From Moniliella sp. 'wahieum' (taxonomy: Eukaryota): DNA of 64,000 nt. The stretch's first letter is position 1, and every line of letters starts with the position of its first letter. The translations under genes and the position numbers were made by a program. The DNA lies in assembly GCA_003971905.1 (NCBI GenBank), contig RSEE01000047.1:248001-312000 (forward strand). The letters are read 5' to 3'. This document shows positions 1-8,560 of the stretch, piece after piece. The notes below the pieces were generated by a model. That model searched no databases. It saw nothing but the letters and a program-made list of their open reading frames with translations, and was not told where the DNA came from.

Positions 1-1071
1 CGGTTGGGCGCCCCCTCCCCACCCGGGCTCCAATCAGTCCGCTCATCCAAGCCGGTCTCAATGCCGCTAGCGAGGTGCACAAGGCCAAGCAAGCTCTCCC
101 ACCAAAACCTACATGACAATTCAGCGCAGCACCAAGAAGCCCAAGTCGCTGAGGAGCAAGCATGGTGCTCGTTCCGATACCAGGCCCGAGCCTGGATCAG
201 GACCAGGTCCCACTTCCAGTGTTGGGGGTGGTACTTCCATCTCCAACGCTGGTCCACCCATTTTGGTGGCCCCACAGCCGCGACATGCCACTGCTGGGAA
301 TGATCTCACGTCTTCGCTCTACAAAAAGAAAGCAGAGGAAGATGGGATCAAGAGCCATGAGAGCGTTCGCTCAACATACACGGGACGGAGCAAACAATCA
401 TCTCATCGGTTAAACGAGCGCTTCTCCGAGCCGCCTGTCGGGAGGGGTGGCCATGGAGGGGCTGCTGGGTTCGCATCTTGCCACCCTGGGTGCTGGCGGT
501 CGACCGAAATCGCGAGTTTCGACCCGGGCTGCTCGCTACGCCCTTCTTCGTTCCATCCTGAGACTCGTGGCGGGTCTCACAAGAGTCGTGCCGCCGGAAC
601 AAATACGAGTACGGGTACGGACACAGGTCCGGCGCGGGGTTCCCGAGGAGCATCTGTTGGCCCTGTACCCAATGGCTGCAGGACCAGGATGCGATCCAAC
701 CTCCGTTGGGACAGCACCTGGCGCCTAGCCAGTCGATGAGCAGTATCGGTAGCTCCCACAATCTCCTATCCCCTCGCATACAAGGGATGATGATTCCTGG
801 CTGGGCAGCGTTGCCCCAGGCGCCTCTGATGATAGGATCGGTGGCGCCGAGTAGCGTGGAGGTGCCATTGGGTGCAAGAGCAGAGCGAGGCACGCGACGT
901 GTCTGTTACCTCTCACAGCTCGGGCGTGCCTTCCCAGTTTCTTCTGCTTGCTGCGCCTACTCGCATCTCAGGCTGGTGTCTGTGCTCGGGGAACGGCGCC
1001 GGATCCTTTCCCAATTTCCACTAAGTACACATGAGGACACGGAATTAAATGGTCTCCTCGATCCTGGGTAA
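1..1071 (+). CDS. 3' part of a hypothetical Ser/Pro/Gly-rich protein (frameshifted, begins outside window)
   Basis: Overlapping + ORFs 113-739, 447-728 and 706-1071 have coding-like composition and are followed by a pyrimidine-rich UTR-like tract; no recognisable domain. Confidence 0.3.
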
Positions 1072-1289
1072 TTTTTCGTGCCTTCTGTGTCTTTCTTCCT
1101 GCGTTTGCTCGGCATTCCATCCTATTTGGCAAGAGCGTGGCGCACAACGCTCTGTTCTACCAAAAACCAACGCTGCCCTATATTTTCGACCCGCTTTGGG
1201 TATCTAACTTTTGTGCCCCTACCCCTTTGTACCCCCTATGTTTCTCCCCATCTATCCCACACTGCGCACGCGTGGAGTTGTCCGGTCTT

Positions 1290-1320
1290 GTGCTGTTGCT
1301 GTTGCTGCTGTTGCTGTTGC
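1290..1320. repeat. (TGY)n trinucleotide microsatellite
   Basis: tgctgttgctgttgctgctgttgctgttgc read directly. Confidence 0.8.
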
Positions 1321-1464
1321 GCTCTGTACTCTTTATCGTCTCCTTTGCGGGAGCCCATGTTCCGTGCCCACTGAAGGGCAGACGCAGTCCCTAATGATGT
1401 GCTTGCCCCAAGCCGTCCTGTTGGCTGTTGGTGTTGCAGGAGAAGTAGTGTAGCCCGCGTACCT

Positions 1465-1548
1465 TGATGCTTGAAGCTTGAAGCTTGACGTGTGACGTGT
1501 GACGCTTGATGCATGACGCTTGATGCATGATGCTTGATGCATGATGGT
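1465..1548. repeat. 12-unit 7-bp-period TGA-NNNN array
   Basis: TGA recurs exactly every 7 bp: TGATGCT TGAAGCT TGAAGCT TGACGTG TGACGTG TGACGCT TGATGCA TGACGCT TGATGCA TGATGCT TGATGCA TGATGGT. Confidence 0.9.
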
Positions 1549-1712
1549 TCCATGGCAAAGAGGAGGCAGGCAAGTCGTGCGACCCAGAAGCAGTCCTCTT
1601 GCTGACACTTCTGTCTGACGTAAGGCGCACATCACGTGACCGGGGCCGCACCTTGGCTGCTGCTTGCTCTGCCGACTGCGGGCGACCGTCTCTGCGGCCG
1701 TCATTGCGGACA

Positions 1713-2843
1713 ATGCAAGGCCAGCCCGGCCGGTACAGGCCGTGGCGAGTCGCGCGTCGGAGCAGCGGCTGCGATGCCGGCGGGTGTGGGAGGTGGTGTC
1801 GCATCCGGATCCAGCATCGGTGCTGGCACCACCAGCACCAGCGCCGCGCGGCTGCCCCCCGCTCTGCCGCTCGCTCGCAAACCCGCGCTCGCCGACGAGC
1901 TTGGGGGGAGCGCGAGCCAGGTGTTGTTCCCAAGGCAGCCGAGGTGCATCCGCCAAGCATGTGGGCGCCCGTCGCACCTGGCGTGTCCGATGGAGCTATG
2001 TAGGAACAAGCGAGGCCAACTACCCGTTCCTTCGCTCCTTGTGTCTCCGCAACATTTCTTCTCTCGCCCGAACCGCCGGCTGCGGACCTGTTGCTCCTTG
2101 CCGAGGAACAGAGGACCACCATCACCCATTTTAATCTGGCCCCCGATCCTGTTGTCATCCCCCGGGCGGGGGGGGACTGGACCACACTCTCGGACGGCAC
2201 GAATCATCCGAACCGCCTGTCGGTCGCCATGGGCGAGACCGAGTCGGACGTGCTCAACGTGCCTGGGATCGAAACGTTCATGTCCCCCTGGTTGACCATG
2301 ATCCGTTTTTGGATGATGTCCCTCACACCCAACTGGTGGATCCGCTCAGCATCTTTTGGTCGTCGTCCAACATTGTTCGGTCCATCATCAGCCCGCATAC
2401 GATCCAACGCGTCTGGAAGCACTGGTGGACGTACGCAACCACCCAACGGCAATCGTGGATGTGTAGGTGCCGCTTCCAGCTTGTTTTCGCTTCTTTCCCC
2501 CACTGACCTTGACCTTGTGATGATTAGATCGGGCGTGCACGAAGTGGGGGTCGTGGTGGGCTGTCTGCGCAAGCTGCAGCTATGGAACTTTGCTGGAATC
2601 TTGATTGAGTATCGTACGTTGCCGGGAGCCGAGCTCGGCCCGAACACGAACGGTTTATCGAAGTACGTCGTTCCTCTGAGTTGCATGGACTTGATCTACT
2701 TACTCATCCGCCCCCCCTCCTCCCCCCTCTCCTATCAGACGTTCGACATCGACTCGCTCACCTTACCTCCCGAACCGTTCATACCCAAGTGGTTGCTCTA
2801 CCGCCCCAAAGGCGCAGCCCGATCCCGGAGGAAGCCAACTTAG
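1713..2843 (+). CDS. Siw14/OCA-family (Y_phosphatase2) protein, probable pseudophosphatase (Oca4/Oca2-like); start uncertain
   Basis: Motifs PPSMWAPVAPGV..NYPFLRSLCLRNI, LEALVDVRNHPTAIVDV|SGVHEVGVVVGCLRKLQLWNFAGILIEYR, ERFIE|TFDID; introns 2463-2527 and 2663-2738; several frameshifts. Confidence 0.8.
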
Positions 2844-2877
2844 CAAATATGTAGCATGAATAACACTCTTCTCCTCC

Positions 2878-3635
2878 TCAGCGTCTCTTGTTCTTCTTTT
2901 TGGGTTTCTTGACAGGCTGGGGAGTTGGTTGCGGGGATGGAGGGAGAGAAGGGGCAGGGATAGGAGGCGTCCATTCAGACAGTCCTCGATCAGCGGCATC
3001 TTGTTGCCGTAGAGCAAGCACGCGGTCTTCCAAGTCAAATAGGTAACTGTCCTTGACATGGTCGCCCAAGTGCCGGACGGCTCGTCCGCAGTGCGCAGGA
3101 GATAATCGTCGTTCCGCCCACTTGGACCCGAGGTGTGAAGATGCGCTCAGCCAGCTCGTCCACCGGCTCGGGCCCAACAAAAGCTGGGTTGTCGGGCAAA
3201 CCGACATAGAAACACATTGTCCAACCTTTCTCCTCGCTTGCCCACACCGTTACCGTGTTTCGGTGTACCCGTTCTTCTCCCGCCAGTCCAAGTACCCTTT
3301 CACCGCCTCTGCATGAGCAGGGTCGATGGTAAAGCTGTACCCCCACACGATACCCCCTCGGGGGGCTTTCGCCACTCGCTCGTGCCAGTCTTTGGCGGTA
3401 ACAAGGGTTACCACCCGTCCGGGCCGTGCTGGGGTGCCTCTGTGGTCGATGGACGCTGAGCAAAGCGTCGCGCATAGCCTTTGATGAAGCCTGGCGTCGC
3501 ACCAATCACGTGGGGCGGGGGACGGAAGATAAGACTCCCATAGCCAAACACGTCAAACGAGCCTTCAGGTCGCTCGGTAAGGATGGGCAAGTCGGATGCA
3601 GGCACTGCTGGGGCAGCTAACAAGTCGGCATGCAT
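2878..3635 (-). CDS. ChaC-family glutathione-specific gamma-glutamylcyclotransferase domain (possibly the C-terminal part of a JJJ1 fusion)
   Basis: VFGYGSLIF, GFIKGYARRFAQ.S.DHRGTP..PGRVVTL, YLDWREKNGY (catalytic Glu), YVGLPDNPAFVGP, DSYLFDLE; frameshifted. Confidence 0.9.
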
Positions 3636-5139
3636 CTTTTCGTACTCGGGCGAATTCCATAGACTCTCCTCAGCCGAGCCCGGGGTAGGGCACCGTGTTG
3701 GAGGCCAGGTGAAGGCGTCACTTCTTCATCCTCCGAACCTTGAAGGGCAGCAGCAGCTGCTGCCGCTTTGCGTTGCGCTTTTGCCTTCTTCTTGGACTTT
3801 TTGCTCTGTCCCGGCGCTGGTGCTTCGTCATCAGAGACATCCCTGCATCTCGTGTGCCAAGATCTACCTCGTTCAACTGAACTTTTTCTCGTCTGCTTCA
3901 TCTCCCGCTGGAGGCGTCGAACTTGCTGATGTTCTTGCTGTGCTCATGGTTGCGCAAAGGCTCGGAGCGGAAGAACTTGTCACACGCAAAGCAGGTAAAC
4001 TCGTTTGGGTCGCCCCATTCAACCTGGTCCGCAGCACCTTCGCCAGCTTCGGCTTCAGCATCCGCCCCCTCTACCCATCGGGACCTTCGTCTCTATCAAT
4101 CGCCTCGCCATCCGACGAATCAAACTCGGAGTCGAGGAATGCGTCGTGCTCTTCCCATGCTTGGCGTTCAGCAGCATACTTGGCTGCTGCCTCTTGCCGC
4201 TCGCGCTGCCGAGCTGCCGCCTCCTCCCGCGCCTGCTGTTGCCGCTTTTGTTGGGCTGACGGCTCGGCGGCCATGCGTTTGGAGTACTCTTGGAACCGAG
4301 GATCGCGCTTGCGCACAAACGAAGCGAGAGCATGGACAGTGTCGTTATACTCCCGCCGCGCCCGATCACGCGCTTTTTTGTTGTCCTTCTCCATCAACCT
4401 CTTGAGCCGACGATCGGGGGGTCCGAGGCGCGGTACTGATCTGCCCAGCCAAAGCTCTTGCGGGTGTGGAAATTGAGCCAGGCATCGTAAAAGTCCTTGA
4501 CTTGGGGGCCGCTATGATCCCGGGGCAGTACATATGCGTCTTGAAGACCCCCAAAGAGAGGGTATTCGATTGGATCGCCATTGTCCTCTCCGGGGTAAGG
4601 AGTGGCAAGCGTTCCTCCTCTGCCAACCGCTCAAAGAGACGGCGATACGTCCCGTAGAAGCCGCTGCTCTCTGCCACTTCGGGTCGTAGCTGCGCTTCGG
4701 ACGCAAAGCTCGGATCAAAGAACTTCATCAGATGACGCACCGTCAATCCTGGGCCGGAAGGTTTGGCTGGAGCTTGCGGGTTTGCCTGTGCGCAGGTCAT
4801 GGAACGTAGCCGGGTCGACGTCCTCCTCGTCCTCGTCGGCAGCCAGGTCGTCGTTTTGTGGGTATCGTACCATGCACGTCCTGTTCGTCACTGAGGACCT
4901 CATATGCGCTTGGATCAAATGAAAGCGCCGATTGGCTTCTCCTCCTCGCCTCGGTTCTTGTCGGGGTGGTGGACAAGAGCCAGCTTGCGAAACGCCTTGC
5001 GCACCTCGGCCTCCGTCGCGGTCTCCTCGATGCCCAGCAGGGCATAGTAGTCCTTGGCACTGGGGCCCCCGGGCCACGCAGCATCGGGAACATCGCCTGG
5101 AGTTGCACCCCCTCGACTCGTCGACGCAGCAGCACCCAT
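3636..5139 (-). CDS. JJJ1: JJJ1/DNAJC21-type J-domain co-chaperone with C2H2 zinc finger
   Basis: [27 protein letters not shown] domain; [46 protein letters not shown] zinc finger near 3930-3995; several frameshifts. Confidence 0.88.
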
Positions 5140-6199
5140 GCCTAAAGAAGCGGGTCAAGTGCAAGATCCAAGGGCGGGACACTGGTGGTTGGTCCAAGTA
5201 AAAGCGCTCTCATCTCTCACAAGTAGCCAATGGCAGGCCGGCGAAGTGAAAAATTAGGTCATCGACCCGCTGCTCCGTCCCGCCGGGTGATCGACGGATG
5301 ATCCCCAGGCGCTATGCACATCGTCCCGGCTATAATATGCTACGCGTGCTATATAGGCCCAGCTGGGCCCGCGGCGCCTCTCCGCTTCAACCAGCTCGGC
5401 CGATCAGGCGCGCGTGCCTTCGTTCTCGTTTGCAAGCCAGCTGTCGGGCGGGATTCGCTGTGCTCCGATCCTCGTCCCCGCCTCCGTTCCCGTGACATGC
5501 AGTCCTGGCCAAGCTCTCCTTTCCACCGTGCACTCTCTGCCGGGCTGCCGTTAAAGGAGGATTAGATCCGTCATCAGCAGTGCACATGCACCCATCGCCT
5601 CGTCAAGAGCGTTGTGGTCCTGCTCTCTTTTTTCCCACCTCCTCTCAACGCCCTGCTCACCTTCAAGCGTATCGTCAGCTAGTCCGCATCTGCTCTTGGC
5701 GTCTATATAGATACGTAACCAGCCTGCCGTACCATCAAACTGACCAACGGAAGAGAGTTCAACTGGGTCTGCATTTTAGACCGGGGGAGGGTCTGGCTAC
5801 TTTTGGTAAATAAGCGCTAGAAGCCAACATAAAGCAGGGACAGGCCCTCGCGCGTGACCTGACATATCATGTGTATGTGGAGCGAAGTCACGCGCGTGGC
5901 GCTTGGCTAACAGACGACGGCAGTCGGACCATGATTCCCCCTCTCGTCCAGCGAGAGAGCAGTTCAAGCAGGCAAGAGGTGCGGGGCCAAAGGGGAAACG
6001 CTGTGGGTTCACCCAAACGGTCCGAGATAGTACCGATCCTCAAGCCGCGGGGGGGGATGAGGATGAGAACCACTATTGTCAGAGGCGGTCGGCTGGCCAG
6101 CCAAAACATCAACGGGCTCCAACCCTTCTCCCGCCCCGGTAGGAGCTGGACGCCAGGCAGAGTACATCCCCATCGGGCCCGTTTCGAGCGGGCCCGAAG

Positions 6200-8047
6200 T
6201 CAGAGAACGCGAGAAGGGCATAGTGCTTGTTGAATGCGAATCGGAAGGTGCGGAGAAGGAGGGAGGGAGGCGGGGTGATGAGCTGTGACTTGGTGTAACT
6301 GCTGCGTTTGTTCAGGTACCTGCGAAGTGGAAGGGGACGAGGTCGAGGTCATGGGCTGTAAGGCAAGAGCATGAGTAAGAGCAGAAGGCTTGCTAGCCAT
6401 CAGGTTTGGCTCAGGATTCGGGTGGGAGCGGTAGGAATACATCGGGCCCGACGGAAGGGCCTGATGAACGAGTAAGGGGGGATAGAAGGTCTCGGCAGAT
6501 AGATCAGCGGGCGGGGGACCGTGTGGTGTATATGTCAAACCAGAGGGGTTAACCTCCAAGCCCCGTCCCGTAGCAGAGTAGGGAAGAGAAGCATATGCTC
6601 CTCCCGATGTTCCAGGGGATGTGGAAGAAGAGGCAAGGTGGGACTCGTGGGCTTGGTTCGATGGGCCGGCAGGAACCGTGAACCCTGGAGGTTGAAGGAT
6701 AGGGGAAGGGGGAGCATGACCCTGTGGGGGAAGAGCGGGAGTGGAGGCGGCCGTTGCGGAGGCAGAGGAGAAAGAGGTTGGCAAAGTAGGTCTGCGCTCC
6801 TCCAGGAACGAGGCTGGAATGTGGCCCACGTCAGGCTCACTCACGTAGAGGAGGGTCCCGTCGTCAGCACGGCGCGTTTGGGGCGGCACTCGAAATTTGG
6901 AAGGGGGGTGAAGTAGATCTGGCGAGAGGGACAGTGTGCGAAGCGACGTCTCTGACGGGACACGGAGGCGATTGGCCCAAACATCTTCCAGCGTATAATA
7001 CGACACGAGGTGGCAGGTCCCTCCATCCGTCTCGACGGAGATGGTCTACAAAGTGACTGGTTAGATGCCCGGCACTGATATGTCCTTTAGTCCATATCCC
7101 TGAAAAAGAACGTACCTTCTTACAGAGTCCTCGCTCCACAAAGGGGGAAGCGGCCGTAACGTGGGCCATAGCGCGGGACGCCTGCTCCTTCCGTCTCGGT
7201 GCAGAAGAAGGACGTGTCAAACGAGGGGTCAGAATATCGAGACTTGAATCAAGACTCCCCGTGCGCTCACGCCACGGGGCTTTTTTGTCCAACCCACGAC
7301 TGACAGGTGGTTGCATCTCTGCACCCCGTAGAGGCCCCACGCCTGAAACGGTGGCGGTGCCGCTTCGGGAAGCCAGGGCACTTGGACGTATCCGTGCGAC
7401 CGTGTTGGAATCAGGAGGGGATATGGTGCAAGTGGCCCGCCGTTTTGGCGGCAGGTTGGGCAGAGGGGAGGAGCCTTCCGATCTCTCAGGAAGCTGGTAG
7501 AATGTGGGGGGGGCAGGGGGTTCGGGAAGACGCCCAACAATAGGTGAGAAAGATTTGCGCTCAATCTGGCGGTAGACCTGGAGGAATAAAGATGGGTCAG
7601 CCTAAGCACATAGTGGCTTGAACGTCAAATCTTTAGCAGAGACGGAGGGGAGATACTCACGAGAAAGTTCTGGAGAATCCGACTAGGACTCCAGAGCAGC
7701 CCATCAGTCCAACGCTTAATGCCAGTCTCACGTTCATTGAAGATGAAGACCTGACCGGATCGGATCAGAGAGCGGCGTTCATCATCCCGCAAACGCCGCT
7801 GGATCAGGGGAATAAGCCCTTGTCGCACGGCTTCAAGAAGCAAGAGTGCATCCAGAGTTGTTGACACGTATCCTTCCCACGTGCTGGGTAATGGGGGCCG
7901 TGCGTGAGCGGGTACCTCCTGGGGCCGAAGAAGGGCGTAACTGTGCTGGATCGGCCCAAGGGCCGGCAGTGAGCGGGGCGGGAAGGAGCGGGGCGGGGAG
8001 GAGAGGGGTGGGAGGCAGCGCAGAGGGTGTAACAGTAGGATGAGCAT
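6200..8047 (-). CDS. Gti1/Pac2 (WOPR-domain) transcription factor; 3' end uncertain
   Basis: TWEGYVSTTLDALLLLEA..RRLRDDERRSLIRSGQVFIFNERETGIKRWTDGLLWSPSRILQNFL|VYRQ (intron 7578-7660); GLCKK and SYYTLEDV..LRVPS WOPRb part. Confidence 0.92.
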
Positions 8048-8560
8048 TACTGCTGCGATTATCTGGCGTCTGGTCTAGATGACCAGGGGTCGGGACATGG
8101 AGAAAGGAATAGAGCGGGGTCAGGGCGAAAATGGCGTGCGGCAGAACTGGCCCGGTTCGACTGTTAGTCGTTCAATAGGAGGTTGTCGACTTGGGCAGCC
8201 GTGGCGTAGGGAAGGGCACGTGGGTCGTTTTGGATGAGGAGCCGATAATGTGTCGACTTCGTACAAGAGAGGATCGCCAGGCAACGCTCAATACCAGAGA
8301 GCGTGGCAGACGAGGGCGGGAAGGAACTGGAAATAGAGCAGGCGTGTAGGAAGGCAGGTTGAGCCCAGCAGGTGCATGTCGTTTCGTCCGACCAGCTGAG
8401 ATGAAGCAAAAGGCGTATACAGCAAACTTCAACGCCAAATCCCTACAACGAGCAGAGCAAGCGAGCGAGTGCGACCGCACACGTTGGTTGGGGGGGGTCG
8501 TTCGGGTGAGGCCGAGGGCCGAGGGAGCACCAAACGAACAGTGGTGCCGTGGGTAATACT

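What the first reader, a model, noticed from the sequence alone, without database searches (positions are those of the whole stretch)
2878..5139. Candidate JJJ1 (Hsp70 co-chaperone)-ChaC (glutathione-degrading enzyme) fusion protein
Seen: both are on the minus strand with no intergenic space. The JJJ1 post-zinc-finger frame (..[29 protein letters not shown]) overlaps a frame that is open upstream of the ChaC Met ([32 protein letters not shown]). One indel around 3690-3720, of the kind common in this assembly, joins them. A Lys-rich tail (KKPKKKNKR) follows ChaC. Established: Jjj1/DNAJC21 acts in 60S subunit maturation and ChaC/Gcg1 cleaves glutathione; they are normally separate genes. Inference: a ~750-aa J-domain/zinc-finger/ChaC protein could couple ribosome biogenesis or Hsp70 activity to glutathione redox control.
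Basis: partly seen in the sequence, partly recalled or inferred. Interest (0 to 1): 0.75.

Follow-up and report, generated by a model that had tools for sequence, protein, structure and literature searches.

The report
Glutathione enzyme nested inside ribosome chaperone
In most smut fungi and Malassezia yeasts, the enzyme that breaks down glutathione sits inside a ribosome-building chaperone as one protein; this gene is a real example, already present in databases but apparently never studied.

Summary
The fusion is real. The window copy is broken by about 19 indels, only one of them in the Jjj1-ChaC linker (about 3690). A second copy in this genome has the missing base, and close relatives encode one open 771-aa protein. 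It is not an end-to-end join: ChaC is inserted between Jjj1's two zinc fingers. A zinc-finger-2 profile from unfused Jjj1 hits behind ChaC in 56 of 70 fused relatives. This lineage has since lost finger 2. The named fused proteins span Ustilaginomycetes, Malassezia, Microstromatales, Tilletia and Tilletiaria (U. maydis UMAG_10300). Exobasidiales and Agaricomycotina keep two separate genes. The fusion is the only ChaC and the only Jjj1 found in this genome. The main catalytic Glu is kept, and ChaC is the best-conserved part. The N-terminus fits a myristoylation motif. Most likely it is a tethered two-function protein, locked in once the free genes were lost.

The parts
2878..5139 (-). Single gene for a Jjj1/DNAJC21 protein with an internal ChaC domain (about 760-770 aa once sequencing indels are allowed for)
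   Evidence: P0001 cluster of 4 intact 771-aa members
5122..5139 (-). N-terminal MGxxxS motif, probable N-myristoylation signal
   Evidence: motif in 52 of 61 J-bearing fused and 111 of 120 unfused relatives; the Zymoseptoria tritici JJJ1 homolog F9XMZ7 is myristoylated by MS (PMC8341946 section 7). Not tested for this protein.
4860..5052 (-). J domain with HPD motif (approximate ends; three indels inside)
   Evidence: Pfam DnaJ E 1.1e-13 on the first piece; residues 30-93 of P0001
4290..4510 (-). Zuotin homology domain (approximate ends)
   Evidence: PF21884 pieces; residues 215-285 of P0001, E 1.5e-11
3925..3996 (-). Zinc finger 1 of Jjj1 (C2H2, jaz type; first Cys at 3993)
3560..3830 (-). 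Basic stretch and variable linker; holds the single junction indel at about 3690 and the non-conserved Met at 3635
   Evidence: linker has 0 of 59 invariant positions
3015..3560 (-). ChaC gamma-glutamylcyclotransferase domain; FGYGSL at about 3548, Glu equivalent to human ChaC2 Glu83 at 3279-3277
2881..3010 (-). Pro-rich spacer and Lys-rich tail: the Jjj1 C-terminus, with zinc finger 2 lost in this lineage
   Evidence: the zinc-finger-2 profile finds nothing in six frames of window 1-8000 or of L002 but scores 49.9 bits in control L017; P0001 and P0002 also lack it

Best explanation
One intronless gene encodes a two-function protein. Early in Ustilaginomycotina, the lineage's own ChaC gene was inserted in frame into the acidic, low-complexity spacer between zinc fingers 1 and 2 of Jjj1 (shown by domain order). 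The N-terminal J domain, ZHD and finger 1 most likely act as in other Jjj1 proteins, recruiting cytosolic Hsp70 to late pre-60S subunits (inferred from family knowledge). The ChaC domain folds on its own on flexible tethers and most likely cleaves glutathione to 5-oxoproline and Cys-Gly (inferred from intact active-site residues). The site tolerates the insert because that region of Jjj1 is non-essential. Once the free genes were lost, the fusion became the sole source of both activities and was locked in. The main effect is co-expression and co-localisation with a probably myristoylated, ribosome-associated chaperone, not obligate mechanistic coupling. The breaks in this window are long-read deletions. 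The fusion itself is about 97% certain; the stated confidence is for the loosely tethered model.
For: 70 of 84 longer ChaC relatives have a Jjj1 zinc finger before ChaC. A finger-2 profile from 84 unfused Jjj1 scores over 20 bits behind ChaC in 56 of 70 and in front of it in 0 of 70; a finger-1 profile does the reverse, 70 of 70 versus 0. Four loci from independent contigs hold J, finger 1 and ChaC in one stop-free frame (L015, L017, L019, L020). In this genome ChaC matches only at the two fusion loci, and Jjj1 regions beyond the J domain match only there too. ChaC has 59 of 191 invariant positions over 50 fused proteins, the linker 0 of 59. The AlphaFold model of P0001 has confident domains, disordered linkers and pTM 0.43; its ChaC part matches human ChaC2 6ky1 with TM 0.83. 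In yeast, deleting the Jjj1 C-terminal charged domain or finger 2 leaves growth normal (PMC2854368, passages). Linker length varies from 120 to 267 aa (finger 1 to GYGS). ChaC has been released again by partial duplication in the M. sympodialis group.
Against: No activity, transcript or full-length protein has been shown for this organism. Retention across several orders, and a fusion-specific GSF motif just before ChaC (69 of 70 fused; 0 of 106 Agaricomycotina and 0 of 8 Exobasidiales-type free ChaC), could reflect selection for the tether. The position equivalent to human Glu74, whose mutation lowers activity (PMC7022552, passages), is Glu in only 41 of 66 fused proteins versus 103 of 105 free ones, and is Ala here, so the enzyme may be retuned or weaker. 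Two of the -1 events (P0001 residues 97 and 357) are shared by both genomic copies; I read them as systematic run-length errors, but that is not shown. The two own-genome searches give lower bounds in an indel-rich assembly.
Confidence: 0.58

Rival explanations
1. Functional coupling: the tether is selected because it places glutathione turnover at pre-60S particles or membranes, or lets Hsp70 cycling on the J domain, or zinc-finger redox state, switch ChaC on or off. This would link ribosome maturation to the glutathione pool.
For: Kept in named members of Ustilaginomycetes, Malasseziomycetes, Microstromatales, Tilletiales and Georgefischeriales. Fusion-specific GSF motif and shifted Glu74-equivalent. 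Conserved MGxxxS. M. sympodialis MSYG_0024 is about 2.3-fold higher in vesicles than in whole cells (log2 1.19, FDR 0.061, from 2-4 spectra per sample), although the authors' enrichment flag is 0 (PMC6004016 supplement file 2).
Against: The linker is unconserved and varies in length. The model shows no fixed domain arrangement (pTM 0.43). Exobasidiales live with separate genes. The yeast region is dispensable.
Confidence: 0.27
2. The gene is fused, but the products are separated: an internal start, alternative transcript or linker cleavage releases free ChaC, so the fusion is a bicistron-like arrangement.
For: U. hordei locus NDA14_005975 has annotated isoforms that start inside the gene (503 and 821 aa) or end inside ChaC (753 aa). 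The linker is disordered.
Against: No conserved Met upstream of ChaC. Finger 2 and the basic tail of Jjj1 would be cut off with ChaC. The basis of those isoform models was not seen.
Confidence: 0.09
3. The family fusion is real, but both copies in this genome are decayed pseudogenes.
For: 19 and 14 frame events in the two copies, two of them shared.
Against: Most indels are private to one copy and complement each other, leaving 5 events in the union. Aligned residues are 83% identical to P0001 with no in-frame stop. No other ChaC or Jjj1 locus was found. Neighbouring genes also give only partial Pfam matches.
Confidence: 0.04
4. Two adjacent separate genes were merged by the reader or by gene predictors.
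For: M. sympodialis has a separately annotated 294-aa GCG1-like protein (P0038).
Against: That protein is an extra partial duplicate; the same genome has the 766-aa fused model SHO75692. Jjj1's own finger 2 lies behind ChaC. Single stop-free frames are seen in raw contigs.
Confidence: 0.02

Closest known systems
Ustilago maydis UMAG_10300 (XP_011389183, 932 aa), Tilletiaria anomala KDN53410 (822 aa), Malassezia sympodialis SHO75692 (766 aa)
   Same: Same order J - ZHD - finger 1 - ChaC, orthologous by trees; the window's closest relatives P0001/P0002 group with Tilletiaria (Georgefischeriales)
   Different: They keep zinc finger 2 after ChaC; this lineage has lost it. Databases name them 'uncharacterized', 'related to JJJ1' or 'ChaC-domain/gamma-glutamylcyclotransferase', never both.
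Yeast Jjj1 / human DNAJC21 and unfused basidiomycete Jjj1
   Same: J domain with HPD, ZHD, jaz-type finger, basic tail
   Different: About 190-aa ChaC insert: finger 1 to finger 2 spacing has a median of 422 aa in fused versus 177 aa in unfused proteins
Yeast Gcg1 (PDB 5HWI/5HWK) and human ChaC2 (PDB 6K95, 6KY0, 6KY1)
   Same: Sequence E 3.6e-37 to 6KY0, fold TM 0.83; G7, S8, H39, R40, E83, Y87, Y109 and Y144 equivalents invariant in 50 fused proteins, Y6 Tyr or Phe
   Different: These are free single-domain enzymes; the Glu74 equivalent is Ala here and variable among fused proteins
ChaC-PUA fusion of Naegleria (scan notes e1-682550, e1-635927; unchecked)
   Same: Another eukaryotic ChaC joined to a second domain
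   Different: Different partner, and an end fusion rather than an insertion; not examined here

Membership tests
Jjj1/DNAJC21 | N-terminal J domain with HPD | tested here: met
Jjj1/DNAJC21 | Zuotin homology domain | tested here: met
   two window pieces at E about 6e-4, each under the cut-off; intact P0001 E 1.5e-11, over the cut-off
Jjj1/DNAJC21 | Zinc finger 1 | tested here: met
   22.5 bits in the window (broken by indels), 40.7 in L002
Jjj1/DNAJC21 | Zinc finger 2 near the C-terminus | tested here: not met
   absent in the window, L002, P0001 and P0002; present in 56 of 70 fused relatives, so a lineage loss; dispensable in yeast. The protein is filed as a variant ortholog, not a canonical member.
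Jjj1/DNAJC21 | Orthology by phylogeny | tested here: met
   J-part trees group the fused proteins with unfused Exobasidiales Jjj1, apart from Agaricomycotina Jjj1 (support 85/89)
Jjj1/DNAJC21 | Binds pre-60S/Rei1 and stimulates Hsp70 | not testable with these tools
   needs bench work
ChaC glutathione-specific gamma-glutamylcyclotransferase | Full PF04752 domain and GGCT fold | tested here: met
   P0001 171 bits over model positions 3-174 of 176; fold match
ChaC glutathione-specific gamma-glutamylcyclotransferase | YGS loop, DHRG motif and catalytic Glu (human ChaC2 E83) | tested here: met
ChaC glutathione-specific gamma-glutamylcyclotransferase | Second Glu (human ChaC2 E74) that supports activity | tested here: not met
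   Ala here; Glu in 41 of 66 fused versus 103 of 105 free proteins. One paper treats it as an alternative acid/base; it is not the family-wide catalytic residue.
ChaC glutathione-specific gamma-glutamylcyclotransferase | Cleaves glutathione | not testable with these tools
   needs an enzyme assay
N-myristoylated proteins | Gly2 with Ser/Thr at position 6 | tested here: met
   (motif only; the consensus is recalled; homolog shown modified)

The most novel reading that the evidence does not exclude
Smut fungi and Malassezia have wired their only ChaC glutathione-degrading enzyme into a myristoylated ribosome-maturation co-chaperone, so that Hsp70 cycling or ribosome binding controls local glutathione breakdown. 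This would be a direct physical link between 60S maturation and thiol-redox or cysteine supply. The insertion, with its absence in Exobasidiales, would also serve as a rare genomic marker for the unsettled class-level tree of Ustilaginomycotina.
Probability: 0.25. Interest if true: 0.78.

Novelty: new variant of a known kind. Interest (0 to 1): 0.47.

Why it matters
An intact enzyme nested between the two zinc fingers of a conserved ribosome-biogenesis chaperone, and kept across most of a fungal subphylum, is unusual. It appears to be overlooked because each database record names only one half. It changes how knock-outs and expression data for this gene should be read in U. maydis and Malassezia: deleting 'JJJ1' probably also removes the ChaC route of glutathione breakdown. 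It offers a clean split-the-fusion test of whether the tether matters. Its presence or absence is a discrete character for a tree whose class boundaries are disputed (PMC7451774, passages).

Tried and rejected
Sequencing runs: no RNA holder listed, and two small-share DNA runs. Laying them gave no cover of the junction, so this is uninformative. Direction of change in Exobasidiales: trees of both halves nest the free forms among fused ones (0 of 200 bootstrap trees make the fused set one clade), but AU tests do not reject a single fused clade (p 0.084 and 0.245). Free Exobasidiales-type ChaC lacks the fusion-specific GSF motif (0 of 8), while Malassezia's secondarily free copies keep it (5 of 5). 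Secondary split versus never fused is therefore unresolved. The metagenome scan aimed at Exobasidiales ChaC loci, to test synteny or remnants, returned 68 loci; I examined 12, and none was recognisably an Exobasidiales locus. An intron at the junction was rejected: no branch-site match and one weak donor-like word, and relatives are colinear. An internal ChaC start was rejected. Independent fusions outside Ustilaginomycotina: only 7 of the best 150 representatives carry both parts, all already seen; some of these are unnamed. The supplement of PMC5389616 (1 file searched) had no JJJ1, GCG1 or ChaC entry; peptide-level tables that I could not see may show whether both halves are detected. No complex prediction was run. 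The genome-wide indel rate was not measured.

Full report
Observation. The minus strand from 5139 to 2878 carries, in shifting frames, a J domain, a zuotin homology domain, a C2H2 finger and three pieces of ChaC. The window lies in a 69.5-Mb assembly that has a second copy of the region, L002, 96% identical. Inside the aligned span the window lacks bases at 22 places and L002 at 17 others, mostly single bases. At the junction the window lacks one C at about 3691 that L002 has, and L002 lacks an A at about 3718 that the window has; taken together the frame runs from the basic stretch through ChaC without a stop. A frameshift-aware alignment to the closest intact relative P0001 gives 19 events in the window, 14 in L002 and 5 in their union. 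Only one window event (-1 at about 3690) lies in the linker, and no in-frame stop is needed. Two events are shared by both copies, which I read as systematic errors but have not proven. Public reads did not cover the junction.

The fusion is general. Searching longer proteins with the ChaC-side piece returned 84 hits; 70 have a Jjj1 finger before ChaC, and 61 of these also have the HPD motif. Named ones are all Ustilaginomycotina: Ustilago, Sporisorium, Thecaphora, Testicularia, Violaceomyces, Malassezia, Microstroma, Jaminaea, Sympodiomycopsis, Tilletia and Tilletiaria. P0001 stands for four separate contigs, each with a 771-aa product. At DNA level L015, L017, L019 and L020 hold J domain, finger 1 and ChaC in single stop-free frames of 772-861 codons (12 of 68 loci examined). 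The U. maydis ortholog is UMAG_10300 (932 aa) and the M. sympodialis one is SHO75692 (766 aa). MSYG_0024, 'similar to JJJ1', was detected with 5 peptides. Its coverage equals 126/766 exactly, so the detected model is the fused one, but the row does not say where the peptides lie (PMC6004016, supplement file 2, row and part 1). A profile search over 1.84 billion representatives gave 7 two-part proteins among the best 150, all seen before. Trees place the window's closest relatives with Tilletiaria, Georgefischeriales.

It is an insertion. Unfused basidiomycete Jjj1 has two fingers (two in 96 of 120 hits). A profile of finger 2 from 84 unfused proteins scores over 20 bits behind ChaC in 56 of 70 fused proteins (median 55.9) and never in front; the finger 1 profile does the opposite. 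ChaC therefore sits inside Jjj1, widening the finger spacing from a median of 177 to 422 aa, and the Lys-rich tail is Jjj1's. Of the 14 without finger 2, some are partial records. Tilletia and the window's lineage look like true losses: no finger 2 is found in six frames of the window or L002, while control L017 scores 49.9 bits.

Both halves look functional. In this genome ChaC matches only at the two fusion loci, and no unfused Jjj1 was found; both are lower bounds. Over 50 hand-picked fused proteins (of 70), ChaC has 59 of 191 invariant positions, the ZHD region 22 of 159 and the linker 0 of 59; partial records lower the J-domain count. Residues named as the active site of human ChaC2 (PMC7022552, passages) map to invariant positions, including the Glu83 equivalent at window 3279. 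Against this, the Glu74 equivalent is Ala here and Glu in only 41 of 66 fused proteins versus 103 of 105 free ones. The AlphaFold model of P0001 has mean pLDDT 76.8 and pTM 0.43, with disordered linkers; its best fold match is ChaC2 (6ky1, E 2.8e-15). The N-terminus MGAAAS fits MGxxxS/T, found in 52 of 61 fused and 111 of 120 unfused relatives. The Z. tritici JJJ1 homolog is myristoylated by direct MS evidence (PMC8341946, section 7 read). The motif thus predates the insertion.

Exceptions. Meira and Exobasidium have unfused two-finger Jjj1, and Acaromyces has a free ChaC, annotated as partial (Meira and Acaromyces are Exobasidiales). A partial Ceraceosorus record and a related unfused contig protein group with them. 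Trees of both halves nest these among fused forms, suggesting a secondary split, but AU tests do not reject one fused clade (p 0.084; p 0.245). The free Exobasidiales-type ChaC lacks the GSF motif that 69 of 70 fused proteins and 5 of 5 secondarily free Malassezia copies carry. The M. sympodialis group has an extra free copy derived from the 3' part of the fusion.

Mechanism. Shown: one reading frame, domain order, conservation, and sole copy as far as searched. Inferred: Hsp70 co-chaperone action on pre-60S, glutathione cleavage and myristoylation. In yeast the J domain and ZHD are required, while the charged C-terminal region and finger 2 are dispensable for growth, although that region mediates stable ribosome and Rei1 binding (PMC2854368, passages). 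The insert therefore landed in a permissive site. The simplest account is a tethered two-function protein locked in by loss of the free genes (0.58). Selected coupling (0.27) and release of separate products (0.09) remain open.

Novelty. The architecture is present in NCBI and UniProt records and in precomputed Pfam hits, so it is not new to databases. I found no paper describing it in searches for ChaC + J-domain + fusion + Ustilago (listing of 20 of 165), Jjj1 + Ustilago (one unrelated-looking listing, not opened), gamma-glutamylcyclotransferase + DnaJ + fusion protein + fungi, UMAG_10300 and DNAJC21/CHAC/glutathione/Malassezia/domain architecture. The library lacks most subscription journals. 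The scan's own notes had no such finding by words, sequence or place. Verdict: real, a new variant of known parts, moderately interesting and directly testable; interest 0.47.

Noticed in passing
window 5122-5139 (-): Basidiomycete Jjj1 proteins, fused or not, mostly begin MGxxxS/T (111 of 120 unfused hits); a Zymoseptoria homolog is myristoylated by MS. A lipid anchor on a 60S maturation co-chaperone is itself little noticed (one search listed 2 papers with both words).
   Followed up: partly
window 2004-2843 (+): Convergent gene with a partial Y_phosphatase2 (Siw14/Oca-like name recalled) match; its frame ends at 2843, only about 35 bases from the fusion's stop.
   Followed up: partly
window 6200-8074 (-): Gti1/Pac2 (WOPR) transcription factor gene upstream on the same strand, broken into frames; PF09729 E 2.8e-35.
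   Followed up: partly
L002 (G000:C10:764068-766476): Second copy of the whole region, 96% identical with complementary indels; the 69.5-Mb assembly probably holds two haplotypes or subgenomes.
   Followed up: partly
P0039, P0046 (Malassezia equina, M. caprae): Free ChaC duplicates annotated as joined to an alpha/beta-hydrolase-like region, a few locus tags from the fusion gene; a real second fusion or a gene-model merge.
   Followed up: no
P0083: Unnamed 397-aa protein with ChaC plus YjeF_N (PF03853), another ChaC fusion.
   Followed up: no
window 1490-1530: Short tandem repeat of a CATCAAGC-like unit upstream of the phosphatase-like gene.
   Followed up: no
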